Part shown: positions 9,277-44,512 of the stretch, piece after piece | Numbering within the stretch: position 1 is the first letter of the stretch | Layout: each line of letters opens with the position of its first letter | Assembly: GCA_043228905.1 (NCBI GenBank) | Contig: JBHGNT010000002.1 | Location: 16,306,001 to 16,370,000, forward strand | Source: Azolla caroliniana | Lineage: Eukaryota; Plantae; Polypodiophyta | Reading direction: 5' to 3' | DNA length: 64,000 nt | The notes under the pieces: generated by a model | What the model saw: the letters and a program-made list of their open reading frames with translations, nothing else | Told to the model about the DNA's origin: nothing | The model's database searches: none | Program-made: the position numbers and the translations under genes

Positions 9277-9301
9277 TGTTTCCACTCGCATGCTTTTACC
9301 C
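9277..9301 (-). repeat. right terminal inverted repeat
   Basis: Pairs with 308-332; preceded by TAGCTAATTAGCTA at ~9257-9270. Confidence 0.85.
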
Positions 9302-10596: not shown

Positions 10597-13199
10597 CTAC
10601 TTCATCGATGTTTCTTCTTTATACTCGAACCGTTGTTGCCATCCGATCCACCATATTCTTCGTTCACTCTTTGAATTTCCATGACTGGTTGCCATGGCTC
10701 CCTTTTCTCCTGTAGAGCGTAATGTTTCATGCTTTGTGCATGTGCCACCTTCATCTCGACCATCTCCTTGGTCATCTAACTTTCTTTTATCATTCTTTCT
10801 TGTTCCATGCATGCCTTTCGAAGACCTTATAGAAATACTATTCTTGAGTACTCTTAGCGATTCATTTTTTAGCGGCATGCTCTCCTCTAGGTCCTTAAGT
10901 GACCACATCGCATGCTTCCCACTTTGTCCACTTTTGTGGTATACTCTCGTCTTGGAGTTGACTATGACTTCTACACTAGTATTATCCTTGTTAGATTTTG
11001 TGATCACATCTTTCATATCCGCTTAGCCCACTTGGCCCATATCTTTGCTTTTTGAGGTTTGCTTGGTCTCTTTGTCGCACACATTAGCTTTTGTCTTCGT
11101 GCTTTGCTTGACCTCTTTGTTACACGTATGGACTTTCGTCATTTTGCTTTGCTTTACGTCCTTGTTGCACACATTGGCTTTAACCCTTGCTTCCTCGCCG
11201 CCACCATCCTTCGCTTGGGTCTTACATAGGTTAATGCCCAAGTCTCTCAAACGAGTGTGGAGGAATTTTGTAGTTTGGCATTGCCTTTGTCGTGCTACCC
11301 TTAGCCATTTCCACCTTATGGTTGTCCACATTGGCTTTGACCTTTGTTTCTTTGCCGCCACCTTCCATCTCTTGGATCTTACATCGGTTAATGCCCAAGT
11401 CTCAAGAACTTTTGTGGGGAAAGTCTCTTCATGATCATCATCTACCCTCTTCATCTTGACGTCTCCTTCTTCTTCGCATGTGTTAGCCTCGGCCTTCACT
11501 TCCTCACCGTCACCTTCCGTCTCTTGGGTCTCACGTTTGCTTTCCGACGTTGTTGAGTGGCGCGTGACACACATGCCAAACGTCGGAATGTGTGCGTCAC
11601 AAGCGCGGACAAGCACCGGGCCTCTATCCACTAGTGGTTATGGATTATGGGCGGCTGAAGTGACGCACTAATGTGGTTAGAGTGAGAGAGAGAGAGAGAG
11701 AAACAAAATTTGAGGAAGTTTTTAAGATAGATAGGTAGATATATACACATCACCAATAAGATAACTAAGTATTCTTATTATTAATTTTCGATTTGATACA
11801 TAGATTGATTCATAGATTGTTTGATTCATCCATTGATTGATCCCCCCCCCCCCCCATTACACAAGCCTTACAAGGGTTTTAATAGGTTTATCTATCCTTC
11901 TAACATGCACAAAACCATGGGCTTGAACCCATGGTTTTCGGGCACACGGTTTTCCTTGTGGCATGCACAAAACCATAGGCTAAAACCATGGTTTTGTGTA
12001 CACGGTTTTGTATGTTTGTTTCCTATGGAATACTAAATATGAGAAGGAAATATACAAAATCTAAAGCACTTAGTAATAGCTTTAGTGGTAAGATAATTGC
12101 TTCCTATCTTAGAAGTGCAAGGTTCAAATCTTGCTTGCACCCTTTTATATGCACTTGAATGTCATCAGATCCTAGGTTAATTTTCATATTTATAATCATG
12201 TGTATAATGTGTGTGGAGCCACACTATTTCACAATTTCTCCCATTGGACACAGAACATCATGACAACGCATTTGCCCAAGTCTCTAGAACAAGTGTGGAG
12301 AAACTCTTGACACGGCCATCCGCCATTGACTCGTCCATAGACACCTCTGACTCGATGTCGTTTTTCGTGGCTATCTCCTCAATCATGTCGGCCTCACATT
12401 TTTTATCTCCCTTGATCATGCAAGCTTTGGTCATGCTTGCACCTTTATCACTTGATGTTGCAGATATGATACGTGTTTCGAAACATTTGTCTTCGCTTGA
12501 AGTGGCATTCGCCACCCTCGATTCATTTGTTTCATTCTTCTCCATTGTTTCTTTGCAAGACGAGAAGGTGTCTTCTTCCACACCTTCTTCCATGGTGTTG
12601 TCATACCGAACTTGGGCCTTCGTATTGGCCATATCATCACTCCACCTTTGTTGGGAGGTCTCTTCTTCTTTGATAACCATTTTAATTGGTTTTGGTTCCA
12701 TTATAAGATTCTCTTTGGCCTCGACTTGCACCTTTAAATTCTCATATGCCTCGTTTATGAAGGCCTCTATGTCGAGTACCATCGAACCTTCCTTCTTCAA
12801 GCTCTCTTCTTTAGGTGGTAGTTTGTAGTTGCTTCCCATCCTCCTTTCACCATCCGTCATGGGTTGTATTGTTGCCGATGAGAATCTTGTCTTCCTCTTA
12901 TCGTGCAGTTGACATACTCTTTCCACGTTCGTCCAATCCTTGGTGAGGCCATTTGCACCATCATCATCCTCAAGTCGGATTCCAATGGCCTTCCTTTCCT
13001 TCCGATCGATTGACTTCACGAACATTAGGACTTTATCCACCCCCACCAATCTTTGATCCCGCTCCGAGAGTTGTGCAAAGCGACACTCAAACTCAACGAA
13101 AGCATGCATGGCACTTTGGTGGGTCTTTAATGATGATACCCATTGGTCGAACTCGTATAGTTTGCATCTCTTCGGCTCTTTGTATCTATATGCCTCCAT
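10597..13199 (-). pseudogene. gag-like ORF with low-complexity tail, interrupted by a solo LTR and a stop
   Basis: ORF pieces 12258-13199, 11023-11550 and 10597-11016 are colinear with the intact 665-aa ORF at 41376-43373 (FAQLSERD..DKVLMFVKSID..DDDGANGLT; RIWWIGW). Confidence 0.75.
11551..12265 (-). mobile_element. solo LTR (715 bp)
   Basis: TGTTG...TGACA termini. TSD ACGT/ACGC. Removing it restores the host ORF. Shares blocks with 16506-17134. Confidence 0.75.
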
Positions 13200-16158
13200 G
13201 AGATATCCTCCTACCGCCTCGTTTCACGTCGGGTTCACCAAAGATGTTGCGAAAATACGACGAGGATACGTGAACTTGAGGCAGGACTCCGGGGCCCCCG
13301 ACCAGAGGATATCACATTTGTGCGTTTATATTTTTAACAATTAACGGAAATAACAAATTTAATAATTTTCATTAACAAAGGAAACGAAATTACAATATGT
13401 CCCAAGATTGGGATTCAGAAGTTTTAGGTTTACTGAGATTAATAGAAAAGGAAAATTAGGGGTTTTGAGAGATATGACTTCCGTAAGGAAAATTAGGGTT
13501 TTTGGCTTCCGTAAGGAAATTAGGGTTTATGAGAGATATGGCTTTCGTAAGGAAAATTAGGGTTTATGACTTCCGTAAGGAAATTTAGGGTTTATGAGAG
13601 TTATGGCTTCCATAAGATAAGAGAGCTAAGAAGGAAAAGAAAATAAAAATATATGGAGAGACAGAGTGAGTGTAGGAAAAAAAAAATATGGAGTTCCCCG
13701 TTGATCATAGCCTTCTATGTTACTTTGCATGTCCACTTTTAGTTGCATCCATTTTTAGTTGCATGGCTTTTTCTTTTAGTTGCATTGCTTTTTCTTTTAG
13801 TTGCATGCGACCGTCCACATGACCTTTACTTTAGTTTTCTTTACTTTACTTTAATTAGCCACATGATCCTATCATCTGTCCGTCTCGATCGCCGCCCATC
13901 CAATCTGTCTAGTCCGCGTCCAGCCTTGTCCAGTCGCCGATTCCGCCCGATCACCGGTTCCGTCCGATCGCCGGTTTTCGGATCCACTCGATTTCCGACA
14001 CTATCTGATTGTTGATTTCGTCGGGTCCGATTTGCTTACCGGTCGGTTCCTGTTTGCTTCCCGACCGGTTCTAGTTTGCTTATCATCCGATTCCAAATTG
14101 CTTACCGACCGGTTTCGGTTTGCTTACCGGCAGGTTCCAGATTGCTTACCGACCGATTCCGGTTTGCTTTCCAGCCAGTTCCAGTTTGCTTACCAGCTAG
14201 TTCCAGTTCCATTACCGGCCAGTTCCATTTTATTGCCAATCGGTTTTTGGGAACTTGGCCACATTCATCCATCTAGACAAAGTGGCCAAAGTGCTCTTAG
14301 CACAAATGAAAAATGAGGTATCTCAATGTGATTATATAGCTAGGGCCTTAAGTTTCGTATGTATGTGGGATACTTCAAAATTCTATTTTCCCTATCTTCT
14401 CAAGCTTCATGTCCACCTAACTTGATATGTAGTTGTCTATTTTGTATGTAGTAAAATGCGTTTTGAAACTCTTGAGTACATCCATATTTCTATAACAAGC
14501 TACTAATCTAATCTAAAATAATTATTTCATTATTTTTCTACATAGTTTTCATATCGTGTGTGAAAAACCACACGACATTCACCCCCACCAAACCACACGA
14601 CAGCGTGGTCGCCTGTGGCGCGTTGTGCAGGACGTTTGGAGGTGGGTCCCGACGACGATTGTCGTTCTGTCGTCGATTGTTCCGCGAACCTCTATAAAAT
14701 TTCTTCTATCGGTTCGTGAATACCGTTGATCGTACCGGTTATCCCAGTCGTCGTCATATTGATCATACTCATCATTTGTTCTATATTGGTCGTCGTGGTA
14801 CTGGTCATGGCGGTCATCTGATCTCATGCGATTGTCGCGGCGGTAACGGTCATCATTACGTCGATAGTCGTCGTCGCGGCGCTGGCTACCCAGAGATCGT
14901 GGTCGCTTGTTTGCCCGATGTCGGTATGACTGACGTTCATCCTGCCAAGAGTATGTATTGTGAAGCTCGATCTGGCAAACCGGAGTCGTCGTTGTGCGGT
15001 TGAGCATGTTGTACTCACATTGTTCGATCGTGTGAGCTCGGGACTGACATATTGGGCAGTGTGGCCAGTGAGGGCACTCGAGAGCCAGATGGCCTGAGCC
15101 TGAGCAAGCCGTGCATTGGAGGGCTTGTCGGAAACGATTGTCCTCCTGAGGAAGGGAGCTTTGCAAAGAGTCCATGGAGAAAGTCGTGTTATGTTCGGTC
15201 CTAGCGATGGCGAGGACACGTGCGATGACTTGCTCAATGGTCTAGTTCGAGAAATTGGTAAGTGCGAGAGTCGTCCGTAGAGGCTCCCGTAGGCTGGACA
15301 GGAAAGTATCCGGAATGTGATGGGCGGAGACATCGTTGGCCAGTTGTCGGTAGAGATCTTGAAACCGGATCGTGAACTGGGCGACCGTCTCGTGAGGTTC
15401 TTGGCTCATGGAAAAGAACTACTGGAGTAGTTCACGCTTCGGAACTTGGCGGTGAAATAATTCTGGAAACTTTGTGCGGACATCCTAAAACGTGTGACCT
15501 CCCCCATGTCGAGGCGGGAGTATCATCGAGCAATCGTGCCATCGAGGGATAAAGCGAACTCCGCGATTTTGGAGGACTCGATTGTTGGGAATATGTCCCT
15601 CCTGTGGGAGGATGATCCGACTGTTCAGAAAGCCAACAGTCAAAGAGTCAGAAAACAAGAGCCGAGTTGATGAGGAACGGTCGAGGCCGAAACCGGAATT
15701 GTGTAAATGGCCAACTCGGGAGACTATATTTGTAAATAGTCTTAGTGTGCGCCCCATAAGGGCTACGTATGTAAATAACCAGAAGGTTGCATAAGTATAT
15801 ATGCAACTAGGGCAAACATGTTGTGAGAGATGCAGGAGTAGAAGTAAAACGACTGTGAGAGAGAGACAGAAGAAGCGTGAGCTGCGCCATAGCTGTGTTG
15901 TAAGAGCCCTTCGTGGTTGTTACACTCGATAGAGTGTTGTAACCTTCTCGGTGGTGTATATCCACTATTTGTATAGTGAAGCTCTGTTCCCGTGGTTTTC
16001 CCCATTTTAGGGTTTCCACGTAAATCTCTGTGTATAGTCGTCTATCTTGTCTTTCTCACATTTTGAGTGTGATTCGTATTTCAACGCGTAGTTCAATTAT
16101 TGTGATTAATTCCGCAACGATTTCTCAACAAACTGGTATCAAAGCTTGAGGTGCAAGC

Positions 16159-19100
16159 ATGGAAGGAGGTGTGAGCGGATTCCCAGGTATGATAGTTCTG
16201 AACTCTCAGAACTATGCAGACTAGAAGATAAAGATGGAAGACCTTCTCATAGTCAAAGATCTGTACAAGCCAGTCGACAGAGCACAAATACCTAGGGGGG
16301 TATTGGAGTCGGACTGGAAGCTTCTGAATAGGAAGGCGGTGGCCACAATCCGACAATGTGTCGATGTAAGTGTCCTTCAGCATGTGGCGAACGACACGAA
16401 TGCCCACGAGATGTGGCAGAAGCTGTCGGGTCTGTATGAGAGGAAGAACGTGGTAAAGAGAACCTCGCTAATGAGAAAAATCGTACGATTGAAATACGGA
16501 GACGGTGTCGCGAAGATTCGTGTGTGCGTGTGCTACTCGAGCGACCACCAGGGTCTTGGCCTGGGGAGGATGTTTGCAGAATTATCGAAGAGATGACGAT
16601 CAATGTAAGATTAGATGAAATTTGTTTACTTGAGAAGAAGAAAGATTGTACACTTGAGAAGTAGAAAAATATGAAGAAGATAAAGACAAATATAATTATA
16701 TTGATGATATGGTGTTGGTGATATCACATATTGAGCCCCCCTTACACAAGCCTAACTAGAGGCTTTTATAGGTCTTTCCATGCTTGTGACATGCACAAAA
16801 CCATGGGCTAAAACCATGGTTTTGTGCACACGGTTTTGCTTATGTCATGCACAAGCCATGGTTTTGTGCACATGGTTTTCTATGGTTGCTTCATATATAA
16901 TTCGTATATGAAAAGGAAATACATACAACATACACTATATGGTAGTTGTCTTAGTGGTAAGGCAATCATCTTGTATCTTAGAGGTGCAAGGTTCAAACCT
17001 TGCTTGCACCCCTCTGTATGAACTCAAGTGCCACTAGGCCTTAGGCTTATTTGCTAAGTGTATGTGCAATGTTGCACATCCTTGGTTTATTCGTCTCACT
17101 CGGTTTCACACCGTAGCCGAAAATCGTCATGACAACGGTGAGAGCATTGTCGAACACATCAGCACGTTCATGGGGTATGTAAATCAACTTGCTGCGATCA
17201 AGTTTCCCCTGGATGACGCAATGCAGGCCATCCTGCTGATGTGTACCCTGCCGAAAAGCTAGGAGAACCTGGTGGTTACTCTCAGCACCTCTTGTCAAGA
17301 AGAGAACTTGTCTTTAGAGACGGTGAAGACAAGCATCCTAAACAAGGACACAAGGAGGAAAGACAAAGGGGTCTTGTCCCAAACGGAGTCGAATCTGACT
17401 CAACACATGGACAGAGGAAGGGACCAGCGAAGAAGAAGTCCACAGCGAACGGACAGATCCCATGCCAGATCGAAGTCCAGAGGTAAGCCTGTGTGCTTCT
17501 ATTGCGGAAAACCTGGACACTTCCAGAAGGACTGTCGACACCTGAGAAAAGACAAGAGCATCGGAAATAATGTCGAACCCCGGAAAATTCCGGATGAAAA
17601 GAACACTTCGGCCATTGCTACGAGCAATGAGGAACTTCTGTTCATATGTGAACAAACAAGTGCAAATCTTGCAAGTGAAGAGTGCACTTGGGTGATCGAC
17701 TCTGGCGCATCCTTTCACATTACTCCATCGAGAGAGTATTTCTCGACTTACATAACCGGGGATCATGGCTATGTAAAGATGGGTGATAGTGGAGAGTGCA
17801 AGATAACCGGGGTCGGAAGTGTGTGCTTAATGACGTCGACAGGGTGTCGACTAACGTTGAAGGATGTTCGACACGTCCCAGATATCAGATTGAATCTGAT
17901 ATCGACTGGAAGGCTTGACGACGAAGGCTACAGTGGTAGTTTTCGGAATGGCAAGTGGAAGTTCTGCCGAGGAAATCTCATAGTGGCCCGAGCTCAGAAA
18001 GAAGGCACATTGTACATGATGCATGCCCGACTATGCAAATCAGAAGTAAACATGGCAGCCGACTCGGCAGAGGAGATATGGCATAAGAGGCTAGGCCACA
18101 TGAGCGAGAAGGGAATGCACCTGTTAGCCGACCAGGAACTTCTATCAGAAGTCAAGGGAGTGCACCTGGAGAAGTGTGTCGACTGCTTAGCCGAAAAGCT
18201 GAATAGGACGGCATTCCACACGAGACCACCGAGGAGAAGAGAAGTTGCACTGGAACTAGTGCACACTGATGTGTGCTATGTGGATGCTCCATCGCATCGA
18301 GGAGGATAGTACTTTGTAATGTTTATTGACAACCATAGTCGGAAGACATGGGCCTTCGTACTGAAGACGAAGGATCAAGTATTGTCGGTTTTCAAGGAGT
18401 TCCAGGCAAGAACCAAAAGAGAGTCGGGCCGGAAACTGAAGGTTGTCCGAACTGACAATGGTGGTGAGTACAAAGGGCAATTTGAGGAATACTGCAAGTG
18501 CCAAGGTATTCGAATCGAATACACAGTGGCAAAGACCCCAGAGTTGAACGAGCTTGCAGAGAGGATGAATCAAACAATCATGGAGAGAGTAAGGAGCATG
18601 CTCTCCCATGCAAAATTACCAAAATCCTATTGGGTCGAGGCGATGTACACAGTTGTTTATCTGATCAACAGGTCTCCCTCAGTGCCATTAAAGGGTGATG
18701 TCCCACAAAGGGTGTGGATAGGGAAGGATGTCTCCTACCAACACTTGAGGGTGTTCGGATGTTTGGCGTATATGCATGTACCAAAGGATCAGAGGTCAAA
18801 GCTCGACAGCAAGTCGAAAGCATGCATATTCATGGGATACTTGAAAGATGAATTCGGCTACAGGTTGTGGGATTTAGTCGACACAAAGGTAGTGAGAAGT
18901 CGGGATGTCATCTTTCTTGAAGATAAGACAATTGAAGACTGGAAGCAACAGAAGTCGGAATCGACTCCCCAGTCAACCTCGACTACCATCGACTTAAGGC
19001 CAAGTGAGTCGTTACTGATAGCTGTAAGGAGACAGTTGGCCGACAGAGCCTAATCCGAGTTGGTCGACTCAGAAAGACCGATAGACTATGAGTCAGAGTC

Positions 19101-20855: not shown

Positions 20856-22387
20856 ACAGATTTCCTCCCACATGAGTGAAGGGGGAGTTTGTTGGGAATA
20901 TGTCCCTCCTGTGGGAGGATGATCCAACTGTTTGGAAAGCCAACAGTCGAAGAGTCGGAAAACAGGAGCTAACTTGATGAGGAACGGTCGAGGCCGAAAC
21001 CGGAATCGTATAAATGGCCAACTTGGGAGACTATATTTGTAAATAGTCTTAGTGTGCGCCCCATAAGGGCTACATATGTAAATAACCAGAAAGTTGCGTA
21101 AGTATATATGCAACTAGGGCAAACATGTTGTGAGAGATGTAGGGGCAGAAGTAAAACGACTGTGAGAGAGAGAGAGAGAGAGAAGAAGCGTGAGCCGCGC
21201 CATAGTTGTGTTGTAACAGTAGACGCGAAGAGCCCTGCGTGGCTGTTACACTTGACAGAGTGTTGTAACCTTCTCGGTGGTGTATATCCACTATTTTAGG
21301 GTTTCCGTGGTTTTCCCCGTTTTAGGGTTTCCACGTAAATGTCTGTGTATAGTCGTCTATCTTGTCTTTCTCACATTTTGAGTGTGATTCGTATTTCAGC
21401 GCATAGTTCGATTATTGTGATTAATTCCGCAACGATTTCTCAACATCAATTTTGGCAGCCGCTAACCGCTGCGTCGAGTGGTTGGCCTTCCATGTGGACA
21501 CGAAAGCACGGGTGTGTGATTCCGCATCGGGCCCATCGGTATATCGTGGGTAAGGGTAAGGCATGGTAACGAGATCCGGGTCTTCAGGTAAAGCCGAAAA
21601 AGGGTTAGGGTCAGGTTGGGTGACCTCTAGAGGGCTCGACGGGGAGGCTGGTATGGAATCAACTCGCGACTGGTTATCGGGTGGCGAGGATTGCAACCGG
21701 GGAGCCTATGATCGTTCCTGGAAAGATTGGTCAGTGACTGCCGAGTCGGAAGTTCCTTCGACTAGCTCCGAGCGTCGGGCAGGTGGCCAAGACCGCGTGA
21801 GGTGATTGGGCGTCGTAATGGCGGCTAGAGTTTACCTCCTACGTAGTTCACTGTGACCTTACAGTTGTAACCGGGCGTGCCAAATTGTGTTAACCGTTTC
21901 TAGGTAAACACCTTCGATGAGCCCACAGGCTATCGGTATCAAGGGATCATGTTACGTGGAAGCTTCTTCTCCACTGAGAAGATGATAGGAGAACGAGGAG
22001 CGTACACACGCTACAACCCGTTAGGCATAAACATAGCTCGATTTATGAGCACGGGGAGAATACACAGATAAAAGAATAGTAAGAGCGAAACTTATATTAA
22101 ATGATAAAGCTCACAGTGATTACAGTGCACGGCTCTCGACCAAACACAGTTCGTGCAGAGCTCAGTCCTACAATATTAATCTTGCTAAAAATGATCTAGA
22201 TATTCCCCCCTTGAGGTATGCCGATATCGGTTTATATAGTTTTCCTCTTTAGACAGAGCCGAGCCATCGGCTAATTGTGAGGGCTAAAAACTCGACTATT
22301 TCTAGTTTTACCTATTTCCTCACCTACTATTCTACCTACCGGCGAGTATACATAATGTATTTATATTTCTGGCCTATGGACAACACA

Positions 22388-25053
22388 ATGTTTCTTAGGA
22401 TTTTCAAATTTTTACTGTAAATTTATCAAGAATTATTCAAACATTGTGATGCCTCTCACAGAGCTTACACGAAAAAACAAGTCATTCACATGGAGTTCTA
22501 GTGCAACCAAAGCTTTTGAAAACCTAAAGAGCGCATTCACTTCTGCTCCAATTCTACTTCATGCTGACCTAGAAAAACCATTTATCATTGAGGTGGATGC
22601 ATCTGATTTTGCACTAGGAAGTATCTTGTCATAGACAGGAGATGATGGGAAGCTACATCCAATTGCTTTCTATTCACGCAAATTCGAAGCCGTAGAGATC
22701 AATTACGAGATTCACGACAAAGAGCTTCTAGCCATTATAGACTCGTTTGAACAGTGGAGGCATTTCTTAGAAGGTTCTCCCCACCAAATCATTGTTTACA
22801 ATGATCATAAAAACCTCACATACTTTCAAAGTGCTAGAGTCTTGAGTCGCCGCCAAGCTCGTTGGGCACAGTTTCTAACGCGTTTTGACTTTGTCATCAC
22901 ATATCGCCCAGGAGTACAACAAGGAAAGGCAGATGCTCTCTCACGACGATCTTATTTGGCTCCACAACCAGGAGAACCCACATTTGATCATCAAAAACAA
23001 ATCATCTTGGGGCCTAATCGGTTACGACTATTAACTATTAATGCCTCTCAAGCATTTGAAGATTCAAGTCTTCTTGATTCAATCCGAACAGATATCATTT
23101 CTGATGAATTTGCTCAAGATATATTGAATCATATAATTTCAGATCGTGTTTCTTCTTCAAGCTCCAAGAATCCTCGTAAAGATTATAACTAATTTAAATG
23201 GGATAATGGTTTACTTTTTCGCAACACTCTTTTGTATGTCCCAAATGGTTTGTCTTGACTTCAAGTAATGCGATATTGTCACGACAACCCAATGGTCGGG
23301 CACTTTGGAATCCACAAAACTTTGGAGCTAGTTTCTCGAAACTATTGGTGGCCTCACCTTCGAGAGTTTGTTGAAGATTATGTTCGTAGTTGTGATGTGT
23401 GTTGTCGGTCAAAGATTCCACAACATCAACCATATGGGTTATTACAACCATTGCCAATTCCTATTGGTCCATGGAAATCCATCTCGATGGATTTTATTAT
23501 AGATCTTCCAATTTCGAAGAGTTTTGATGTTGTTCTCACTATAGTAGATCGATTCACAAAGATGGCGCATTTTCTTCCATGCACGAAAACCATCAACAGT
23601 AAAGAAACTGTAGACATCGTTATGAAAGAAGTATTTCGGCTTCATGGTCTTCCAGATGACATCATTAGTGATCGTGGCTCACAATTCATCTCAAAATTCT
23701 GGAAACACTTGCTTGAGATGCTCAAAATTTCCTGTAAACTTTCGTCAATCTATCATCCACAAAGTGACGATCAAACCGAGCGGATGAATCAAACATTAGA
23801 GCAATATCTTCGGTGTTTCATCAATTACCAAAAGGATGATTGGGTGGATTTTTGCACTTTGCAGAGGTTGCATACAATAATTCAGTTCATTCCTCAACAG
23901 GGTATACTCCATTTTTTGCAAACATAGGATATCATCCTCGTTGGACAATGATGGCACATCCAGAAATCTCAAAAAATCCTGTTGTTGAAGATCGTCTACG
24001 TCAACTACAAGACATGCGTGTTGCACTTTCTCAACATTTGCAAACTACTCAAGCCACACACAAAAAAGCCACAGATCGTCACCGTCTCGACTCTTCACCA
24101 AAGGAACCAAAGTTTCAAATTGGGGATCGTGTATGGTTACTACGACGTAATGTGAAGACTACTAGACCTTGTGACAAGTTGGATTATCAACGACTTGGTC
24201 CATTTATTATCTCCAATCAGATTAATGATGCTGCATTTTGCCTTGATCTACCTCCACAAATGCATCTACATCCGGTATTTCATGTTTCATTGTTGGAACC
24301 CTACATTGGTAGTTCCATTCCAAATCGGGTTGTTCTAGCCCCACCTCCAGTTCAACTTGTTAATGGCCCAAAATTTGAAGTCAAAGCTATTTTGGACTCC
24401 AAGATAATACGTAAAAAGCTTTATTATCTCGTGGATTGGTTAGGGCATACACCAAATGATCGTACTTGGGAGCCAGCTGAGAACCTTGATAATGCCTCTG
24501 ACTTGGTGGCTGAATTTCATCGCCAATATCCAGATAAGCCAAGTCTGAATTCATGCATTGCGACTCATGGAACTCGTCATCAAAGGAGGGGGATGGTGTC
24601 ATGTGTATACAAAACCCAATAAACTTTATGGTGATTTGAACCCATGACCTCCTCAAAGAAAGCATACAACCCCATCCATTAGGATACATCATATTGTATA
24701 TATTAAATAATAAATTCTACTATATCAATAGGAAATATATTTAATAATATTATTGAAATGTCACCACCTTGCATAGGCTAACACATGATTGCCATGGGGC
24801 ATGCTTGCATGAATGTCAAGTGGTGATCATGCGTGCCTATGAGGTGGCGAGCATGCATGTATCCAAACCATGCTATATAAACATGTATTTGACTATTGAT
24901 GAACCATTCTGGTTCAACGCCAGTCTTCAGCATATTCTTGTAAAAATTGCTCTCGTTGTTAATACATTATCAAATTCTTCTTATCTCTCTCATTATTTTC
25001 GTTTCTCATTCTCTTCTTCATTTTAAAACTCGTTCCTAACTTTGGCCCTGACA
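22388..25053 (+). mobile_element. chromoviral Ty3/gypsy 3' half (Tcn1-like): RNase H, integrase, chromodomain, 3' LTR
   Basis: IEVDASDFALG; YEIHDKELLAI; HxxxxxGH..CxxC; SDRGSQF; LGPF; chromodomain FEVKAILD..YLVDW..RTWEP. PPT 24582-24596. LTR 24597-25053 (TGTCA...TGACA). Confidence 0.92.
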
Positions 25054-34002: not shown

Positions 34003-34434
34003 TATATCAAATTTCACTTTCCCAACCCAAGGATTCAAAGTGATAACATGGCAATATTAGTAAGAACTTTGCTACTCAATATGGCCATTGACAATGTTAA
34101 AAAGGAAAACAATGCTTTACATGATGGCATTAGCAATCCTAACAAAAGAAGAGGGAAGAAGCGCTTCAATTTCGCGAAGTGTTTTAAGTGTTGGCTTCGA
34201 TGTTGGTGTTAGCCTGACTCATCTCAATAGGTGTGTTGAGTGACAAGCTCAACATGGCGGATCGGCTGAAGAATTCGAAAGCCAGATCGGCTAAAAATGC
34301 CGACAACCGGATCGGCTTGGTGCCAACAGGCTGTTAGAGGCCTATATTCCTATTAAAATAGGAATATTGTAGGAAATTAGTGTCAGAGGCTCATTGAAGA
34401 GCACAGATAAGCTTGGATTTCCAGACATAGACTA

Positions 34435-36727
34435 ACATGAACATGGATAGAGCTATGGGGAGTTCCTTGCCGACCGAAAAACTCGACATGAACAACTACA
34501 CATCTTGGGAGTACAAGATGCACGAGTACCTACTCGGCCACGGGTACTAGAGTTATGTTGAAGGTGCAAACGAAGTAGCTCTAGAGCCGACAAACAAAGA
34601 TTTCTTGACTTGGAAACAAGCAACATGCCGCGTCTTGTATTGCTTGGCATCTTGTGTTCATGAACAAATGCTAAGCTATATCAAGGATGTGAAGTCACAG
34701 AAGGAAGCTTGGGGATTAAAGATCTTTATAGCAACACCACATCCTAGAAGTTGTAGCTCTAACAAGAGCTCAACAATGTTCGACAAGGAGGCATGTCGAT
34801 AACTGACTACACCACCAACATCAAAAAGATATGTGATTCGTTGGGATTCATCAACGTTTTGATAAACGAAGATGAGCTAGTACAAATCTATCTAGGTGGT
34901 CTACCTCAGAGGTATGGGTAGATTCAGACGAATATTTGCACAAGAGAGAAGCCGTTGTCCTTCTTCGAACTACACTTGATGCTCCTCGTAGAAGAAAACC
35001 ACACGGTTGCATCTACACAGAGGCGGATCGACCCTATGGTCGTGGAGGACGAGGCGGGTCGGCATGCAACAATGAAAACCAACATGAGTAGAACCAGAGG
35101 CACAACAAAGATGTTGATAGCAGTACCAGACCCTCCACAAAGTAGGGGAACTCAAGGTGATGCCGGGAGCCGACAAAATAGAACCACTGACTACTAGTAC
35201 TGTGGTAGGAAGGGTCAAAGGGAAAGTGAGTGTTGGAAGAAGAAAGTTGATTCAGACAAAGCCGAATCAAGCAGACCCGATTTTGGGCGTCATTAGAGAT
35301 TGCACTATGCTGAGTCAGAACGGGCCCTACATTCGTCATGAAGCACAAAACCAACTGAATGGGTGTATTCGGTGTGAGCACCTCGATGCCAAAAGAGGTG
35401 TGGTACGTAGAATCGAACACATCAAACCATAATGAATGGTTCTCTACTTTGGAAAAGCCAGAGGAGCCAAGAGTCGTGGAGACCGATGACATCCCTTACC
35501 CCATTGAATATATAGGAGATGATGTCCCTATGAGCCATGCCGGCCGAAGAGGAATCATGAGGAACATCCTGCATGTGCCGACGATCACCAAGAATTTGGT
35601 GTCGGTTGGATAAATCATCGACCAAGGGATGCAGGTTCGGTTCACACACCATGGATGCTTCATTGAGGACGAAGGCCAGATCATCGTGCAAGGGCACAGG
35701 CACGGGAGGATGTTCATTCTCAAAATGAACGACGTCGGCGTCACTATGTTCGCAAAAGGTTGAATCGGACATCGACATGTGGCACAAGCGGATCGACCAC
35801 GTCAACTTCCCATAGCTTCATCAGATGTGGACGAAGAATATTGTTTTCGGTTTGCTGGAATTTACTAGCCAGAAGGACCAAGTCTGCAAGGCCTAGCAAT
35901 TAGGGAAGCAACATCGACTTCCTTTCCCCAATGAGCGCAATGGGGGCTAGAATAAGCTCAATTTGATCCACTCGGATGTGTGGGAACCGACATAGAACGT
36001 GAGTATCGGAGGGAGCTTCATCGATGACTTCACTCGGCATACCTAGGCATGCTTGATCGAGAAGAAGAGAGAAGTGTTCTCCTGTTTCCTGAAGGTAAAT
36101 TGCCTTGTTGAACGGGACACAGGAAGGAAGATCAAGTGCCTTAGGTTTGATGGTGAAAAAGAGTACTTTTCCGTCCAATTCACAAGTTATTTGCAAAAGG
36201 AGGGAATTTGGCGCGAATTCTCCTATAGATACACGCTAGAGTAGAACGACATGATCGAGGGGAAGAACTAGACCATAGAAGAAGTGGCTAGGGCAATGCT
36301 GGAATAGAAGAGCATGCCCAAGTTCTATTGGGCCGAAGTAGTCAGGATGTCCGTTTACCTTCAAAATCAAACATCTACAAACGGAGGAGTGTCACCACAT
36401 GAGTTGTACTTCGAGAAGAAGCTGAATTTGGCACACTTGAGGGTGTTCGACAACATTGCATAGGTGCATATGCCGAAGGAAAAGTAGAAGGAGTTTGATG
36501 CCAAGGCCAAAAAATGTATCTTGGTCGGCTACTCGGATGAGCAGAAGGGTTACAAATGTTGTGACCCCTGAACCAAACATGTTCGAGTAAGTTGTGATGT
36601 GGTTTTCGACGAAACGGGTTTGTGGTACCAACCCTAGACCAATCCGACCCCAGACAACTTCATGCTGAATTCTGAGGATGAGGCAAGTTTCATTCCGGCT
36701 GAGTGGGCCAATGGAAGAGTTGTGTCG
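34435..36727 (+). mobile_element. decayed Ty1/copia gag-PR-IN
   Basis: NYNIWEYKMHEYL; LHVPTITKNLVSVG; WHKRIDHVN; KIKCLRFDG; KCILVGY; many stops and frameshifts. Confidence 0.85.
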
Positions 36728-37462
36728 TGTTGGAATGTGGTTGTCTAGGTGCGGAACAATATCAACATCTTTCAAGCAAAGTAGATTGATCACCACAAGA
36801 AGTGGATCAAGTAACACAAGAAGAGACAAAAAGTTAGGCGCAAGTTGCATTGTATTTCTCAAGCTCTCAACCGCACAATATACAAGATGAACAACACCCT
36901 CACCAAACTAGGTTACAAAGTCAGTTTGTGTACTAACTTAGGGTAACTACCCTTCTTAGTATTTACAAAAATGGCCTAAACCTAGTGTGTGCAAATGGGA
37001 CAATGTGAATACATCCATTAGAGACCCGTATTTGACACTCCCCCGTAATGGGCGTATAAATCCGAAATCTATAATATAAGTGAACAATACAGATTTGTAT
37101 AAAGTTGTCGAACAAATCGGATTTTTGTTCGAGTTGGTAAACTCCGAAAAACAGAAGGCTGAATTGGCGGCCGGAGTCGGAGGAACTGAGACCGAACTTC
37201 GAACTATCAATGATGGTTGTTTGAACCCATTTTGAATGTCCAACTCAATCAAATTGATTATTCGTTACGCCGATCGGGTGCCGAAGGGATCAGAATCGAT
37301 CCGTCAAAAGACACTTGATCATCTCATCTGCGACATTATTGGCTGTAGGTATCTTTTCGAGGCCGATTTTTCCTGAAATGACACGGTCCCGAACAAAGTG
37401 ATATCGAATGTCAATATGCTTGGAGGCGTTGTGATGAACTGGATTTTTCGATAGAGCAACAA
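36728..37462 (-). mobile_element. copia 3' end (RNase H tail, PPT, 3' LTR 36728-37037)
   Basis: KNPVHHNASKHIDIRYHFVR; PPT (CTCCCCC on plus) directly after ...TGACA at 37037. Confidence 0.8.
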
Positions 37463-39270
37463 TGTTGAACGCAAAAGAGAGAGATGTTAGGCACAAAATG
37501 AACTATCTTTCAACAACTTCAAAACTAGGTTACAAAGTAGGTTTATATACTGACTAACTTATGGCAACTGCCCTTCTCACTATTTACATAAATAGCCTAA
37601 ACCTAGTGTGTACAAATGGAGACAATGTGAATACGTCCGTTAGAGACCCGCATTCAACACTCCCCCGTAATGGGCGTATACATCAAAAATCTGTAAATCG
37701 AAATAAATGTACAATACAAATTGATACAAAGTTTTCGAACAAATCGAAATTTCGTTCGAGTCGGTGAACTTAGAAAAAAAAGGTTGAATTGGCCGAGATT
37801 GGGAAAACTAAAACCGAGCTTCGAGCTGTTGAAGTTGATTGTTCGAAAAACTTCCTGTGCGTTCGATTTAATCAAACTGATTCTTAGTTACGCCCATTTG
37901 GTGCCGTAGGGATCAGAATCGATCTACCGAAAGACACTTGGTCATTCCATCTGCGACATTATCGGTTGTAGGTATCTTCTCCATGCCATTTTCCTTGAGA
38001 TGATGCAGTCCCGAACAAACTGATATCGAATGTCGATATGCTTGGAGGCGTTGTGATGAACTGGATTTTTCGACAGAGCGACAACACCCTAATTGTCATT
38101 GTCGACGATTGGAGCCAAGTCAAATTCTACTTGTCGAAATGTGCAAGCCAACCGACCAAGCCATAAGGCCTCTTTCGCCACATCGGACGCAACTACGTAT
38201 TCAGCCACGACCGTTGACGTGGCAGTGCAGTCATGAAGTTTCGATTTCCAAGAGATTGCTCCATTTCTAAACTTAAAGCAGTATCCGATTGCCGATTTTT
38301 GACTGTCCACACATCTAGCAAAGTCCGAGTCGATATAGCCGACTACACCTAAGGTGTCATTCGGGCCGAAGAGAATGCCAAGGTCTTTTGTGCCCACCAG
38401 ATAGTTGAACACATGGTTTACTGCGTTCCAATTCGATCGGCTAGGGTTGTGCATGAATCTGTTGACGACTCTGATGACGTGAGCAATGTTAGGTCATGTC
38501 GCGACCATCGCGTACATAAGGGAGCTGACTGCTGGTGCATATGGTACCGACTTCATAGTTTCCCCCTCCGAACCGGATGTCGGGCAGTCTCGCTGAGACA
38601 ACCAAACACCAATGGGGAGCAGGGTCGAAGCTGATTTTGCCGATTGTATGTGTAAGCGTTCGAGGACACGTCTAATATAGTCGGATTGGGACAGAAACAA
38701 TTGTCTTCGATTTTGATTTCGACTAATCTTCATGTCGAGAATGTGTCTCGCCGAACCGAGGTCCTTCATGGCAAACTTCAATTGCTGTTGCCGAACTACA
38801 AGCTCTCCAACTTGCCAACCGGAGATTAACATGTCGTCCACATAGATGATGAGGAAGATGGGTGACCCATCTCGAGTTGTTTTCGTGAAGAGATAGTGGT
38901 CCTCATCGCTCTTTGAGAAGCCGACCAACTGAATGAAGACATCGAACTTCTTATAGCACTGTTGCGGTGCCTGTTTCAGGCCGTATAGACTCTTCTTGAG
39001 TCGGCAGACAAGATGTTCCTGGCCGGGTGCCACGAAGCCTTTCAGTTGCTCCATATAAATTTCCTCCTCTAGATCACCATGGAGGAATGCCATTTTGACA
39101 TCTAGTTGAATCAGCTCCAAGCCCTCGGTTGCCATGACACCGAGCATGGATCTAAGGGTTGTCATTTTCACCACTGGTGAAAAGATTTCGTCGAAATCGA
39201 CGCCATATTCCTGTCGAAAACCCTTACCTACTAGTCTGGCCTTGAATTTTGGGGTGGCTTAATTAGACAT
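37463..39270 (-). mobile_element. related copia 3' half (RT, RNase H, PPT, LTR 37463-37659) nested in the previous one
   Basis: IYVDDMLI; SLYGLKQAP; ISWKSKL; second PPT at 37660; LTR TGTTGAA...TTCAACA. Confidence 0.85.
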
Positions 39271-40528
39271 TATCGAGGAAGTTCTGGCTACACGGTGAAA
39301 CAAAGCCGAACGCGTGGGAACGGGTGCTTACACGGATGAAGACAAAAATTTAGCCTCTATGTATGAACACATGTAAATAACATAGGACCAATAAGTACTA
39401 GGGAGTAGGATTTGATGGGAACTTTAAGGTCCCGCATGGATAGAAAAGAAGGGAGTGAGTCTAACATAAGAAGATCGAGGAAATCTTTGTCCGAAGTGGC
39501 CGACTCAACTACCTCATGTGACAACCATCTATCCCCTTGGTCTATAAAAGGAGGGAGAGAGGACTGAGCAGGGATCAACGTTTTGGGAGGACGAAGTGCT
39601 GCCGGTTTGAATGTTGAGCTCTCTCTCTCTCTCTCTCTCTATCTATCTTGTGACGGTTCTGGAAGGAAACCTTTGCTCGCGCAGGAAGCCCGTGAGCTCC
39701 CGACCAGAGGTTCTTCATTCCGTTTCTCTTGTGTGTGTGAGTGTGTGCGAGTGTCTCTCGTGAGTGCTTGGTTCTCTGGTAATCACTTGTTGATTGAGTT
39801 CCCTCTTGTGTTGGGGTTTCTGTGTTGTTCTTACTTGTTGCGTGTTAACCGTAACCAAGCTTGCGTCTTAAGTCCCGTTCAGACCCTTTTTGCGTGCACG
39901 TCCCGACTGCTTCTCGACTTCCCGACCGGGCTTAAACCGGCATAGCTATCCGGACCGATCCGGAGAATCTAACCGAACCGTAACACGAGCCTCCCTTCTT
40001 CCTTTCCGACTCCTTGGTCCGAGACCCCCGCGGTCCCGCCCGCTCTAACACGTGCACGCGGAATACCGCGACATCTTTGGTGAACACGACGTGAAAGAGG
40101 TGGCAGAAGAGTCTAGGATGAGGGGTAGTGAACTGGCGGAGGCGATGGTGGCAACCGTCAAGCGTATAGTGAATGCACGGGAGGGCACGGGTACCCTCAA
40201 CAGGGCCATAGAAGCGATAGTCAGTATGATAGGCTGGTTCAACGGGAAGGACGTGACTAGCTACCTGGAGGCCTATCGGGCCGAGATCATGATAAGGGAC
40301 ATACAAGAGGACAGACAACTGACCGGATTCCCTTGAGTTGTCACGCTGAGCATCCATGTCGAGGTGCGAGCAGATTGTCGTAACTGGGCAGAATTCGAAG
40401 GGCAACTCCTTGAAAGGTACGGCTTCGACGACTTTCTCCGGCTATCGAAGAAGGACTTTATGGATTGGGTCGAGAGCCCCGACAAGGGATAGAATACGTC
40501 AGCTCTACTTCAGGAGTTTGAAAAGCGG

Positions 40529-43500
40529 TGTCGTGCCTTTCGGCTTCGGATCGTTGCATGAGTCGGGTGGGAACCGCTGGGGTTTTGGACTAGGAAGAGG
40601 AGAGTTTTAAGGCTAATAAGAATATAAATATGTTGTAAGAAAGAGTTATAGCAAACTCGTGAATCCCACGAGTGTATTGTATTAGATTAATCAATATGAA
40701 TATAAGAATATAAACTTCGGTTGAAAGAGAATGATATAGAATTCTCGTGAATCCCACGAGTATAGTTTATTAATTGGTGTTTTTTAGAAACATATCCAGT
40801 TTCCAAATATTTTTCACACCTATTACATTGTGCTCCCCATCCTTATGTAGTGATGGGAGAGACTAAGCATAGCTACATGCTTTTTTTTCTAATATGTTCA
40901 TGCACACTAAATGTGCATGTGATGCTTTTCTAATCCTTGCTTTTATTTGCTAAATATAGTGCTCATGCTTTTCCTATAGATAGACTATATGCTTTATCTA
41001 AAGTGATCATGCTTTTTCTAACTTGTGCGTTTTTTATCATGCACGCTAGATGTGTATGTGTAGCTTTTTCTTTTGTTATGCGTTTTTCTAATGTTTATCC
41101 TAGCGTGAATTTACCTTTCTACGTGGGACATCTATGCTTTAACACTAATGAAATGCTAGTGTAATGGTAAGACATTACATTATTAACATGGAGGTGCAAG
41201 GTTCGAATCTTGCCCTATGCATGTTCCATTTATTTTGCTATTTTCTTCTATTTCTTCATTTTTTATTGAATCTAATACTATATACGTTTTTCACGTAGTG
41301 TACAAAATACACTACGACACTCACCCCCTCCAAACCCGCACATCCTCCGGTATGTGCCGAAGTTGTTGGTGTTTGTTAGTCTCCTCCTTCATCCTCCGTT
41401 TGTCCCGCTATGTCAACTTTGTCTCTCCATTTTGAGTAGACCCATTCTTTCCACCCGAACCATTGTCGCCATCCGATCCACCATATTCTATGTTCGCTTT
41501 TTGCATGGCCCTCTTGGTCCTTGTCATCCGCAGTAGTATCTTTTCTTGCCCTCTTTCTTTTCTTCATCAATCTCGACTTCTTTTCGGATTTTCGGTTTAG
41601 TCGGATTAGCTTACTTCCGATTCGGTCTCGTCGGATCGTCTTTCGTTTAGTTCGGCTTCCTTTCCGATTTGTATTCGGTCGATCCGGACTCGGTTGATCG
41701 GTTTTTACCGATTCAGTGCTCTTTCGGGTCGGTTTCTTTTCTTTTCTTTTCGTCCGGATTTGCTTTCTTTTCTTCGTTTTCACCTGCCTTGTCCGGTTCA
41801 ACTTTCGGCACTTCTTTCCGTTGTTCGCTACGTAGGTCCTCCGATATGTGCTCGTTGTTCGGTCCTCGTGTGGTTGTAATGCATGCTTCTTTTCTCGCCG
41901 TAGCGCGTGCTTCTTTATTCGCCATAACACGCGTTTCTTTATTCGCCGTAGAGCGTGCTCTGTATTACGCGCTTCTCCCATCGTAGACCCGACCTCCGCA
42001 TTGTCGCACTTTCTTTTAGATTGGAATTTCGGATGGATCATTTTCCATCCGAACCGACTTCCGACTTTACCTTCCTCGCCGCCATCTCCCGTCTCTCCGG
42101 TCTCACGTTGGTTCTCGGACACAACCGCCGAAGTCTCTAGATATTGTTGGCATGAATCCTCGGTATTACCTTCTTTCGTAGTTTCACCCTTAGCATTCTT
42201 CTCGGCTATCTCTTCATCGTATTCGTCGGCTTCGACATTCGTTTTCTCTCCGCCACCTTCCGTCTCTTCGGTCTCACGTTGCCTTTCGATCGCAACCGCC
42301 GGAGTCTCTGGAATCAGTGGTGGGGAAGTCTCGATATGGCAATCCGCCATTGATTCGTCCATAGCCACCTCCGATTCGATTTCGTCTTTTGTGGCTACCT
42401 CCTTAATCACATCCGCTTCACACTCTTTATCTGCATCAATTATGCAAACATCTATTATGCTTACCCCTTTTTGACCCGATGTCTCGGGCACTTGTATCCC
42501 AAAATTTCCTTCTACACTTGAATTATCGGCCTTATCCTTCGCCATCGTTCTTTCACAAGACGAGTGGGTGTCTTGTTCCACTCTTTCTCCCGTGGTACCA
42601 TCATGTTGTATTTCGGCCTTCATATTGGCTTCATCGTTTTTCCTCAATCGACCATCCTTCATGGGCCATGTCGTTGTTGACGAGATTCTCAGCTTCCTTT
42701 CATCATGTCTTCGGCATACCCTTTCGACTTTGGCCCAATCCTCGGTAAGGCCGTTCGCACCGTCATCGTCTTCGAGTTCAATACCGATGTCCTTCCTTTC
42801 TTTCCGATCAATCGATCTTACGAACATTAAGACTTTATCTTCTCCCACCAATCTTCGTTCCCGCTCCGAGAGTCGAGCAAAACGATGCTCGAACTCTAGG
42901 AACGCTTGCGTTGCACTTCGGTGAGTCTTCTCCGACGCCACCCATTCGTCGAATTCTCGTCGATCTCGTCCCGTCCATCTCTCATAGTCATATGCCTCCC
43001 GTAAAGCTTCTTCAAAGGACTCCCATGTCGAGTTTTGTTGCCGTATCTTGTGGATTCTCTCTTGTAGCTCATCCGTGGCCACCCGATTGAAGGATGTCAC
43101 TTGCAATCCTTCCGGTATCCCACATCGTATCATCTCCGCCTTGTAGTCACGTAGATAGCGTGACACATCGTTTCCGTTGAATTGTCCGTTTCGTTGTACG
43201 AGCCGTTGTACTACTGTCGTGATCTCCGACATCTCGCGTTGTTCTTGTAGCATTCTCTCGAACATCATCATCATCATGTTCATCGCCTCTTGTTGATTCT
43301 CCATCTCCTTGCCACCCGTCTTCACGTCGGGTTCACCAACTGTGTCGTGCCTTTCGGCTTCGGATCGTTGCATGAGTCGGGTGGGAACCGCTGGGGTTTT
43401 GGACTAGGAAGAGGAGAGTTTTAAGGCTAATAAGAATATAAATATGTTGTAAGAAAGAGTTATAGCAAACTCGTGAATCCCACGAGTGTATTGTATTAGA

Positions 43501-44133
43501 TTAATCAATATGAATATAAGAATATAAACTTCGGTTGAAAGAGAATGATATAGAATTCTCGTGAATCCCACGAGTATAGTTTATTAATTGGTGTTTTTTA
43601 GAAACATATCCAGTTTCCAAATATTTTTCACACCTATTACATTGTGCTCCCCATCCTTATGTAGTGATGGGAGAGACTAAGCATAGCTACATGCTTTTTT
43701 TTCTAATATGTTCATGCACACTAAATGTGCATGTGATGCTTTTCTAATCCTTGCTTTTATTTGCTAAATATAGTGCTCATGCTTTTCCTATAGATAGACT
43801 ATATGCTTTATCTAAAGTGATCATGCTTTTTCTAACTTGTGCGTTTTTTATCATGCACGCTAGATGTGTATGTGTAGCTTTTTCTTTTGTTATGCGTTTT
43901 TCTAATGTTTATCCTAGCGTGAATTTACCTTTCTACGTGGGACATCTATGCTTTAACACTAATGAAATGCTAGTGTAATGGTAAGACATTACATTATTAA
44001 CATGGAGGTGCAAGGTTCAAATCTTGCCCTATGCATGTTCCATTTATTTTGCTATTTTCTTCTATTTCTTCATTTTTTATTGAATCTAATACTATATACG
44101 TTTTTCACGTAGTGTACAAAATACACTACGACA
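40529..44133 (-). mobile_element. young non-autonomous gag-only LTR element (TR-GAG-like), tRNA-Trp PBS
   Basis: Near-identical 791-bp LTRs 40529-41319 and 43343-44133. TSD GCGG. PBS 43322-43338. PPT ~41320-41335. Confidence 0.95.
41376..43373 (-). CDS. 665-aa gag-like protein with acidic repeats, basic tail and Trp-rich C-terminal motif
   Basis: Uninterrupted ORF filling the element's interior. N-terminus FNGNDVSRYLRDYKAEM resembles the host gag. No pol motifs. Confidence 0.75.
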   Translation of the reverse strand: MQRSEAERHDTVGEPDVKTGGKEMENQQEAMNMMMMMFERMLQEQREMSEITTVVQRLVQRNGQFNGNDVSRYLRDYKAEMIRCGIPEGLQVTSFNRVATDELQERIHKIRQQNSTWESFEEALREAYDYERWTGRDRREFDEWVASEKTHRSATQAFLEFEHRFARLSERERRLVGEDKVLMFVRSIDRKERKDIGIELEDDDGANGLTEDWAKVERVCRRHDERKLRISSTTTWPMKDGRLRKNDEANMKAEIQHDGTTGERVEQDTHSSCERTMAKDKADNSSVEGNFGIQVPETSGQKGVSIIDVCIIDADKECEADVIKEVATKDEIESEVAMDESMADCHIETSPPLIPETPAVAIERQRETEETEGGGEKTNVEADEYDEEIAEKNAKGETTKEGNTEDSCQQYLETSAVVSENQRETGETGDGGEEGKVGSRFGWKMIHPKFQSKRKCDNAEVGSTMGEARNTEHALRRIKKRVLWRIKKHALRREKKHALQPHEDRTTSTYRRTYVANNGKKCRKLNRTRQVKTKKRKQIRTKRKEKKPTRKSTESVKTDQPSPDRPNTNRKGSRTKRKTIRRDRIGSKLIRLNRKSEKKSRLMKKRKRARKDTTADDKDQEGHAKSEHRIWWIGWRQWFGWKEWVYSKWRDKVDIAGQTEDEGGD

Positions 44134-44512
44134 GCGGTTTGTGCAACTCTCCACGCTAGACCAGACCGTGCTCAATACGAGCAAGGTCCAACTGTTTGTA
44201 AAGTCGGTCGACGTGCTCGACCGCGAGAAGGTTGGTATCTTGTTGGAGACGGATGAAGGGCTCACGACCGATTGGACTGTGGTCAAAAGAGTTTGCGGTC
44301 GTTTCGACAAACGGTACGATTGGAACAACGCGGGGTCGTCGATGACCGACGTGGGTGCGAGGAGGAAGCCGGAGGAATTGGTCTGACGAAAGTGGAGGAA
44401 ACGAGACGGTGGCTCGAGTTGGGCACAACGCTGTCCAATGTGGTTGTAGGACCGTTCGGGGGCGTAGCTCTTGAGGAGTTGACCAAGATGGTGCGTGATC
44501 TCCAGATTGCGT

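What the first reader, a model, noticed from the sequence alone, without database searches (positions are those of the whole stretch)
11547..44512. LTR family group with 4-bp TSDs centred on CpG, all nested in other TEs
Seen: TGTCG/TGTTG...GACA elements have target sites ACGG (16502 and 17135, perfect), GCGG (40525 and 44134, perfect) and ACGT/ACGC (11547 and 12266). One-sided sites are GCGT (14603), GCGT (44509) and ACAT (39267, possibly deaminated ACGT). The 4-bp length is confirmed by restored host reading frames, while the copia and Asn-primed elements here have 5-bp TSDs. Inference: the integrase prefers RCGN, possibly methylated CpG, steering insertions into silenced TEs. Five clear sites all fitting R-CG in AT-rich DNA is unlikely by chance, but the sample is small.
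Basis: partly seen in the sequence, partly recalled or inferred. Interest (0 to 1): 0.7.

Follow-up and report, generated by a model that had tools for sequence, protein, structure and literature searches.

The report
Phygy-like retrotransposons inserting at CpG
These jumping genes, in what is likely a fern, land almost always on a CG pair and duplicate four bases, a habit already described for the moss Phygy lineage to which they likely belong, so the finding is real but mostly known, and nothing here shows that the CG must be methylated.

Summary
In detail: three two-sided 4-bp duplications (ACGT/ACGC, ACGG, GCGG) and two one-sided CG sites; the sixth site is ACAT. Outside the window, 9 of 12 further junctions are NCGN (the rest CA or TA), and junction contigs from two public runs give the consensus ACGT. 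It is not new in kind: REXdb lists Phygy with 4-bp NCGN duplications (100% of 186 elements) and a tRNA-Trp primer site. I found the autonomous partners: DUF4100 Gag-protease, RT-RH-INT, no chromodomain, no extra RNase H, closest named relatives in the liverwort Riccia. They fit Phygy on each structural feature tested (one partner is a little short), but no moss reference was on hand for a tree. Corrections: the motif is not RCGN (CCGG occurs) but V-CG-B (never TCG or CGA in 14 of 14); the hosts are not AT-rich; nesting needs no methyl sensing, since 82% of the window's CpGs lie in the transposon stack. New are only the likely fern host and the refined motif. The scan noted Phygy-like elements elsewhere in this genome and CpG-centred sites in a fungus.

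The parts
9302..14602 (-). Element A, non-autonomous, Gag-derived interior; 5' LTR 13245-14577, 3' LTR 9302-10527 (its end is lost), PPT 10528-10539
   Evidence: LTR start, PPT and PBS regions match autonomous loci L003/L004 at 80-85%
14603..14606 (+). One-sided target site of A (GCGT), in the Gag-like frame of another LTR element
   Evidence: preceded by a 13-nt LTR start plus an extra PPT copy (14578-14602)
13223..13240 (-). Primer binding site of A (TGGTGAACCCGACGTGAA), 4 nt from the LTR; tRNA-Trp by recall
11551..12265 (-). Solo LTR B (715 bp) inside the Gag frame of A
   Evidence: 74% to C over 334 bp
11547..11550 (+). Target duplication of B, left copy ACGT (right copy ACGC at 12266-12269)
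16506..17134 (-). Solo LTR C (629 bp) inside the gag of a copia element
   Evidence: its 3' part matches L009 just upstream of a lineage gag, 85% over 48 nt, E 8e-8
16502..16505 (+). Target duplication of C, ACGG (second copy 17135-17138)
39271..44512 (+). Element F, older, LTR 39271-40073 (starts TATCG), PBS 40078-40095, decayed gag that hosts D and E; 3' part lost
39267..39270 (+). One-sided target site of F (ACAT), in a copia RT frame; likely decayed ACGT
   Evidence: decay is inferred
40529..44133 (-). Element D, very young non-autonomous element: LTRs 40529-41319 and 43343-44133, PBS 43321-43338, 675-codon Gag-derived frame 41376-43403, no pol
   Evidence: LTR end, PBS and PPT region shared with autonomous locus L001
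40525..40528 (+). Target duplication of D, GCGG (second copy 44134-44137)
44513..45060 (+). Element E, LTR 5' part of another family of the lineage; right end lost (end coordinate approximate)
   Evidence: 71% over 304 nt to L040, whose own junction is ACGT|TGTCG
44509..44512 (+). One-sided target site of E (GCGT) in the gag of F

Best explanation
The six elements are non-autonomous copies and solo LTRs of several families of one non-chromovirus Ty3/gypsy lineage, likely Phygy, in what is likely a fern, and they sit in 4-bp duplications centred on CG, which their partner integrase likely picks by reading the DNA sequence itself. Shown: the 4-bp CG-centred sites; autonomous partners with the same LTR ends, primer site and PPT, encoding DUF4100 Gag-protease and RT-RH-INT without chromodomain or extra RNase H. 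Inferred: the partners supply the integrase in trans; the symmetric intasome cuts 4 bp apart around a palindromic CG and disfavours T before and A after it (V-CG-B, mode ACGT); because CpG is depleted in genes and intergenic DNA and dense in transposon coding regions, this preference alone, helped by selection against genic hits, piles insertions into other transposons; the few CA or TA sites are later deamination of the methylated duplication.
For: Window: 5 of 6 sites CG, P 5e-6; 4-bp length by host frames at 3 of 3 two-sided sites. Outside: 9 of 12 junctions from 12 metagenome contigs are NCGN, 2 CA, 1 TA; P 1e-10 at the loci's CpG rate, 8e-8 at the highest host rate. All 4 non-CG sites (3 loci plus F) abut LTR ends that are themselves mutated. 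Public runs: contigs leaving the LTR at 44133 have consensus ACGT in X1 (20 contigs) and X2 (33); depth falls only to 0.66-0.67 across target bases 3-4 against about 0.04 expected without preference, then drops to about 0.1 beyond base 4. 14 of 14 CG sites are V-CG-B against 37-44% of background NCGN, P 1e-6 to 1e-5, motif chosen afterwards. Partners L001, L003/L004, L015. REXdb Phygy row: 4 bp (100%) NCGN, tRNA-Trp 81%, 7656-9968 bp, no extra domain. 82% of window CpGs lie outside the two gene/intergenic blocks. CG-centred targets are reported for Ginger1 (CCGG 75%, CCGT/ACGG 24%) and for a Drosophila errantivirus subgroup (CGCG). Host ADH3 is 90.6% identical to two ferns, 85% to a liverwort, 77-87% to angiosperms, and lies with ferns across a 99/98 branch.
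Against: No Physcomitrium Phygy sequence could be fetched, so membership by phylogeny, the primary REXdb criterion, is untested. The tRNA-Trp call is from memory; ARAGORN found no tRNA with that end in the window or in the 31 viral and 80 prokaryote loci held. The L001-type element is about 7.3 kb, just under the Phygy range. The read tables hid 18 loose-end rows, give a consensus and not base counts, depth sums are no copy numbers, and X1 may be the sample the window came from. Four of the 12 outside junctions rest on short or weak LTR matches (L002, L005 but 98%, L010, L027). B has no link to a partner except through C. The host tree holds no named moss, lycophyte or gymnosperm. Direct readout versus a methyl or chromatin tether cannot be told apart with these data.
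Confidence: 0.8

Rival explanations
1. The integrase, or a host tether, prefers methylated CpG and so steers new copies into silenced transposons.
For: 6 of 6 window sites lie in transposons; at least 3 of 12 outside flanks match other retroelements (L010, L014, L002). CpG decay at older sites and low CpG ratios (0.42-0.57 outside the stack) show that the genome methylates CpG. A 1992 paper title on CpG methylation and retroviral integration in vitro appears in a reference list (paper not held).
Against: Nesting is expected from CpG density alone (P 0.31). The partner Pol has no chromodomain, PHD or other reader at its end. Like motifs exist in Drosophila, which has almost no CpG methylation (recalled). 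Decay shows methylation after insertion, not before.
Confidence: 0.12
2. The integrase only wants a bendable pyrimidine-purine step at the centre of a 4-bp target (recalled for foamy virus integrase); CG is one of four such steps, and CA and TA sites are original.
For: All 18 sites have a central YR step: CG 14, CA 3, TA 1.
Against: CA, TG and TA are each commoner than CG in the background, yet CG dominates; both run consensuses give CG; all 4 non-CG sites flank mutated LTR ends.
Confidence: 0.05
3. Chance or misplaced LTR ends in a small sample.
For: Only 3 two-sided sites in the window; at D a 5-bp AGCGG could be read if the last A of the LTR were given to the target.
Against: The second LTR copy fixes the end at GACA; frame test; 12 outside junctions and two runs agree.
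Confidence: 0.01

Closest known systems
Phygy, non-chromovirus Ty3/gypsy clade (Neumann et al. 2019, PMC6317226; passages and Additional file 5 read whole)
   Same: 4-bp duplication with NCGN preference; primer site of the type I recall as tRNA-Trp; coding region fills nearly the whole interior; no chromodomain, no extra RNase H, no extra ORF; size 7.3 to more than 8.3 kb against 7.7-10.0 kb.
   Different: Described as specific to Physcomitrella (later also named in the liverwort Apopellia, PMC12885004, passages); here likely a fern. Non-autonomous Gag-only copies and solo LTRs. Motif narrower (V-CG-B). Coding layout, 'ND' in REXdb, is here Gag-protease overlapping Pol in another frame.
TatI (same paper)
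   Same: 4-bp duplication (100% of 4 elements), tRNA-Trp 75%, about 9 kb.
   Different: TatI has an archaeal-type RNase H between protease and RT and no stated target motif; the partners here have no such domain and keep the catalytic residues of the ordinary RNase H.
Selgy (same paper)
   Same: Non-chromovirus, 4-bp duplication, short, no extra domain.
   Different: tRNA-Ala primer, 4.4-6.7 kb, no target motif stated.
Ginger1 DNA transposons (Bao et al. 2010, PMC2836005; passages)
   Same: Gypsy-type integrase with GPY/F motif, TGT ends, 4-bp CG-centred duplication (CCGG, CCGT/ACGG); GIN1-named clusters rank 2-4 among Atlas look-alikes of the lineage integrase (a lead only).
   Different: Cut-and-paste elements of animals with terminal inverted repeats, no RT or LTR; CCGG dominates, here ACGT.
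Drosophila errantiviruses with TATA, CGCG or ATAT targets (PMC5408687; passages)
   Same: Sequence-specific palindromic target of a Ty3/gypsy integrase, one subgroup CG-rich.
   Different: Separate lineage with AGT..AnT ends and often env; CGCG has a central GC step, not CG.

Membership tests
Phygy | Clusters with P. patens Phygy in RT-RH-INT trees | not testable with these tools
   No Phygy reference could be fetched. An integrase tree puts the 4 partners with 11 Riccia proteins in one clade, 98/99; Gag carries DUF4100, a Pfam family I recall as described from Physcomitrella.
Phygy | 4-bp target duplication | tested here: met
   3 of 3 two-sided sites; frame test
Phygy | NCGN target preference | tested here: met
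   14 of 18 sites; consensus ACGT in two runs
Phygy | Primer binding site for tRNA-Trp | tested here: inconclusive
   One conserved TGG-led site in A, D, F and 18 of 51 loci; its tRNA is named from memory, no matching tRNA gene found
Phygy | No extra domain (chromodomain, aRH) in the polyprotein | tested here: met
   Pfam scans of 3 full partner Pol proteins, their ends and 8 relatives
Phygy | Short element, coding region fills the interior, 7656-9968 bp | tested here: inconclusive
   L001 interior 5667 bp, almost all coding; about 7.3 kb with two 0.8-kb LTRs; A-type partner about 8.3 kb. Sizes are estimates from partial contigs.
TatI | aRH domain between protease and RT | tested here: not met
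   No Pfam hit at E up to 1 in the 315 residues before RT; no aRH motif; ordinary RNase H keeps D-E-D-D. No positive control was on hand.
Selgy | tRNA-Ala primer, 4.4-6.7 kb | tested here: not met
   Partners 7.3 kb or longer; primer type by recall
Chromoviruses (Tcn1 etc.) | C-terminal chromodomain, mostly 5-bp duplication | tested here: not met
   No chromodomain; 21% identity to the window's own chromovirus integrase
Ginger1 | DNA transposon with terminal inverted repeats, no RT | tested here: not met
   LTRs, primer site, PPT and RT present

The most novel reading that the evidence does not exclude
The Phygy-type integrase is a methyl-CpG reader: a DUF4100-Gag lineage shared by ferns, bryophytes and fungi, allied to Ginger1/GIN1 integrases, recognises symmetric methylated V-CG-B and so targets silenced DNA without a chromodomain.
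Probability: 0.1. Interest if true: 0.8.

Novelty: new member of a known kind. Interest (0 to 1): 0.3.

Why it matters
The target preference itself is in print. What this adds is small but usable: the lineage is likely present and recently active in a fern (791-bp LTRs with one difference), intact-looking partner integrases are in hand, and the motif is narrower than NCGN. It is the only plant LTR lineage that REXdb credits with a sequence-specific target, and a CpG-seeking integrase gives a chromodomain-free route into CpG-rich transposon bodies. If it proved to read methylation it would be a new way of targeting silent chromatin; nothing here shows that.

Tried and rejected
No whole genome is held for this window, so the genome-wide logo was replaced by laid contigs and metagenome loci. 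Laying runs on the bare LTR gave no junction letters; a 53-base stretch across the LTR end did. No Gag-Pol fusion among 14 longer relatives of the D Gag. Viral contigs held no relative. RCGN rejected (CCGG twice). 'AT-rich target DNA' rejected. TatI, Selgy and chromovirus rejected (membership table). In the tree I labelled P0169 as aRH-bearing; one search shows that its RVT_3 hit overlaps the ordinary RNase H, so that label is void. From the junction count I left out PPT-LTR and LTR-PBS junctions, L044(+) 374 (decayed PBS) and the false ends produced by the L024-derived query, whose 80 nt lay inside another LTR. A single ADH3 exon did not resolve the host; one search used exon limits off by one and was redone. 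An exon of the coiled-coil gene found 1 close relative, unnamed. Cluster look-ups gave no organism for lineage proteins other than Riccia. Searches for a tRNA gene ending like the primer site found none (80 of 120 prokaryote matches were listed as loci). No structure or complex was predicted: it could not tell methyl reading from base reading.
Full report
Observation. All stated sites are in the sequence. The window is a plant transposon stack flanked by intron-bearing genes. Six insertions with TGT(C/T)...(G/A)CA-type ends were mapped: A (9302-14602, minus), solo LTRs B (11551-12265) and C (16506-17134), F (from 39271, plus), D inside F (40529-44133, minus; 791-bp LTRs, 1 difference) and E inside F (from 44513, plus). 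B, C and D have both target copies; among lengths 3-6 only 4 keeps the host frame continuous. In B the left copy ACGT differs from the right copy ACGC at a C that now stands in a CTG context, which fits later deamination (inference). The copia and the element at 45274 have 5-bp duplications. Five of six sites are CG-centred, P about 5e-6 against host-specific CpG rates. The hosts are 44-55% GC, and the LTRs of A, D, E and F do not align beyond shuffle level or barely so, so this is a lineage of several families.

Beyond the window. No genome is held. Twenty runs hold element D or part of it. On a 53-base stretch across the LTR end, 248 (X1) and 255 (X2) contigs were laid; those that leave at the LTR end have consensus ACGT in both runs (20 and 33 contigs), those that follow GCG go on with T (5 and 6), 8 in X2 follow GCGG and 2 in X2 stop after GC; 18 rows were not shown. 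Summed depth over target bases 3-4 is 0.66 and 0.67 of that over bases 1-2, against about 0.04 in a rough no-preference model, and falls to 0.08-0.11 just beyond. A scan of metagenome contigs with partner Gag gave 51 loci; 12 of them hold an LTR-host junction: ACGT 5, CCGG 2, GCGT, CCGC, CCAG, ACAG, ATAT. Nine of 12 are NCGN (P 1e-10 to 8e-8). The four non-CG sites, F included, all abut mutated LTR ends. Over all 18 sites there is no T at position 1 and no A at position 4; 14 of 14 CG sites are V-CG-B against 37-44% of background NCGN, although TCGA makes up 14% of the window's NCGN (motif chosen afterwards).

What the elements are. A, D and F carry one primer site, TGGTGAAC(C/A)CGACGTG, also seen in 18 of 51 loci; I recall it as tRNA-Trp and could not confirm that. 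D and A encode only a Gag-derived frame. L001 shares D's LTR end, primer site and PPT region; L003/L004 share A's. These partners have a Gag-protease frame with DUF4100 overlapping a Pol frame with RT, RNase H and integrase with a GPY/F-type end, and no chromodomain or second RNase H. The named relatives of the integrase are Riccia sorocarpa proteins, up to 63-66% identical, in one 98/99 clade with the partners (45 rows, 40 picked from 120 listed hits). The ESM Atlas lists DUF4100 clusters commonest in Streptophyta and Basidiomycota for Gag, and Basidiomycota, GIN1-named and Mucoromycota clusters for the integrase (leads only). Host ADH3 (256 residues, 7 exons) is 90.6% identical to Ceratopteris and Pteridium, 85% to Calypogeia and 77-87% to angiosperms, and sits on the fern side of a 99/98 branch; no named moss, lycophyte or gymnosperm was in the set, so 'fern' is likely, not shown.

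Mechanism. Shown: 4-bp CG-centred targets and partners with matching ends. Inferred: partners mobilise the short copies in trans, and the integrase reads a palindromic V-CG-B site. Nesting follows from where CpG lies: 0.025-0.087 per base in the LTR elements against 0.014-0.018 in genes and intergenic DNA; 82% of CpGs are in the stack, so 6 of 6 nested has P 0.31. Methyl sensing is neither needed nor excluded. Pure bendability of a pyrimidine-purine step is unlikely, as CA, TG and TA are commoner than CG in the background.

What is known. Neumann et al. 2019 (PMC6317226; passages; Additional file 5 whole) state that Phygy elements are the one exception with an insertion preference, NCGN; 186 elements, 4 bp 100%, tRNA-Trp 81%; they call the clade specific to Physcomitrella, and 'fern' does not occur in the main text. 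Their element list (Additional file 1) and alignments were not among the files I could read and may already show the narrower motif. Jedlicka et al. 2019 (PMC6911290; passages) report GC-rich centres in 4-bp duplications and Phygy nested in Tcn1; their logos are figures I could not see. Phygy is named in the liverwort Apopellia (PMC12885004; passages). Ginger1 (PMC2836005; passages) and Drosophila errantiviruses (PMC5408687; passages) are other CG-rich cases. PMC6839031 and PMC7466625 (passages) added nothing on this target. Searches for Phygy (18 papers, listing seen, passages of 3 read), NCGN, DUF4100 (0), ferns with non-chromovirus lineages (0) and methyl-CpG preference showed no report of Phygy in ferns, of V-CG-B or of a methylation test; the library lacks most subscription journals.

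Verdict. Real, and a new member of a known kind. Interest 0.3. The bold reading, a methyl-CpG-reading integrase lineage across plants and fungi, is not excluded: probability 0.1, interest 0.8.

Noticed in passing
window 14578-14602 and 10412-10544: A's 5' end reads 13 nt of LTR start, then a PPT copy, then the LTR again; the join lies at a shared GGTTT, and the first 145 aligned bases of the two LTRs (PPT included) are identical against 91% for the rest. Likely a patch copied from the 3' LTR region by microhomology; the neighbouring 250 bases are also well conserved, so this is not proven.
   Followed up: partly
window 13241-13244, 40074-40077, 43339-43342; L001-L051: The gap between LTR and primer site is 4 nt in 3 of 3 window elements and 15 of 17 readable loci, and 4 nt (TGAA, TGAG, CGAG, TGGG) also follow the G run before the 3' LTR. 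The integrase may trim 4 nt instead of the usual 2 (recalled norm).
   Followed up: no
P0161 (unnamed record): A distant relative with DUF4100 Gag, protease, RT, RNase H and integrase in one frame ends in a PHD finger (E 1.6e-7): a possible histone reader on a non-chromovirus integrase.
   Followed up: no
L014; window D and E in F, B in A: Insertions into the gag of the same lineage are frequent (3 of 6 in the window, L014 outside), in line with its CpG-rich coding DNA.
   Followed up: partly
window 45063-45135 and 54425-54497: A 73-bp piece, 97% identical and inverted, of the coiled-coil gene region sits at the break where E ends and a copia fragment begins: looks like filler DNA at a deletion.
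   Followed up: no
window 1-9300: A DNA-transposon-like region with HTH-bearing frames and 20-, 83- and 13-bp tandem arrays abuts and truncates A's 3' LTR.
   Followed up: no
window 22350-25030: Truncated chromovirus (RNase H, integrase, chromodomain), Tcn1-like by recall, inside another LTR element.
   Followed up: no
window 60860-63601: Host class III alcohol dehydrogenase gene, 7 exons seen, no stop; used to place the host.
   Followed up: yes
L006 1679-2352; L018 2746-3420: Pol end, PPT, one LTR, primer site and gag follow head to tail: a tandem array or an assembly that closed the element into a circle.
   Followed up: no
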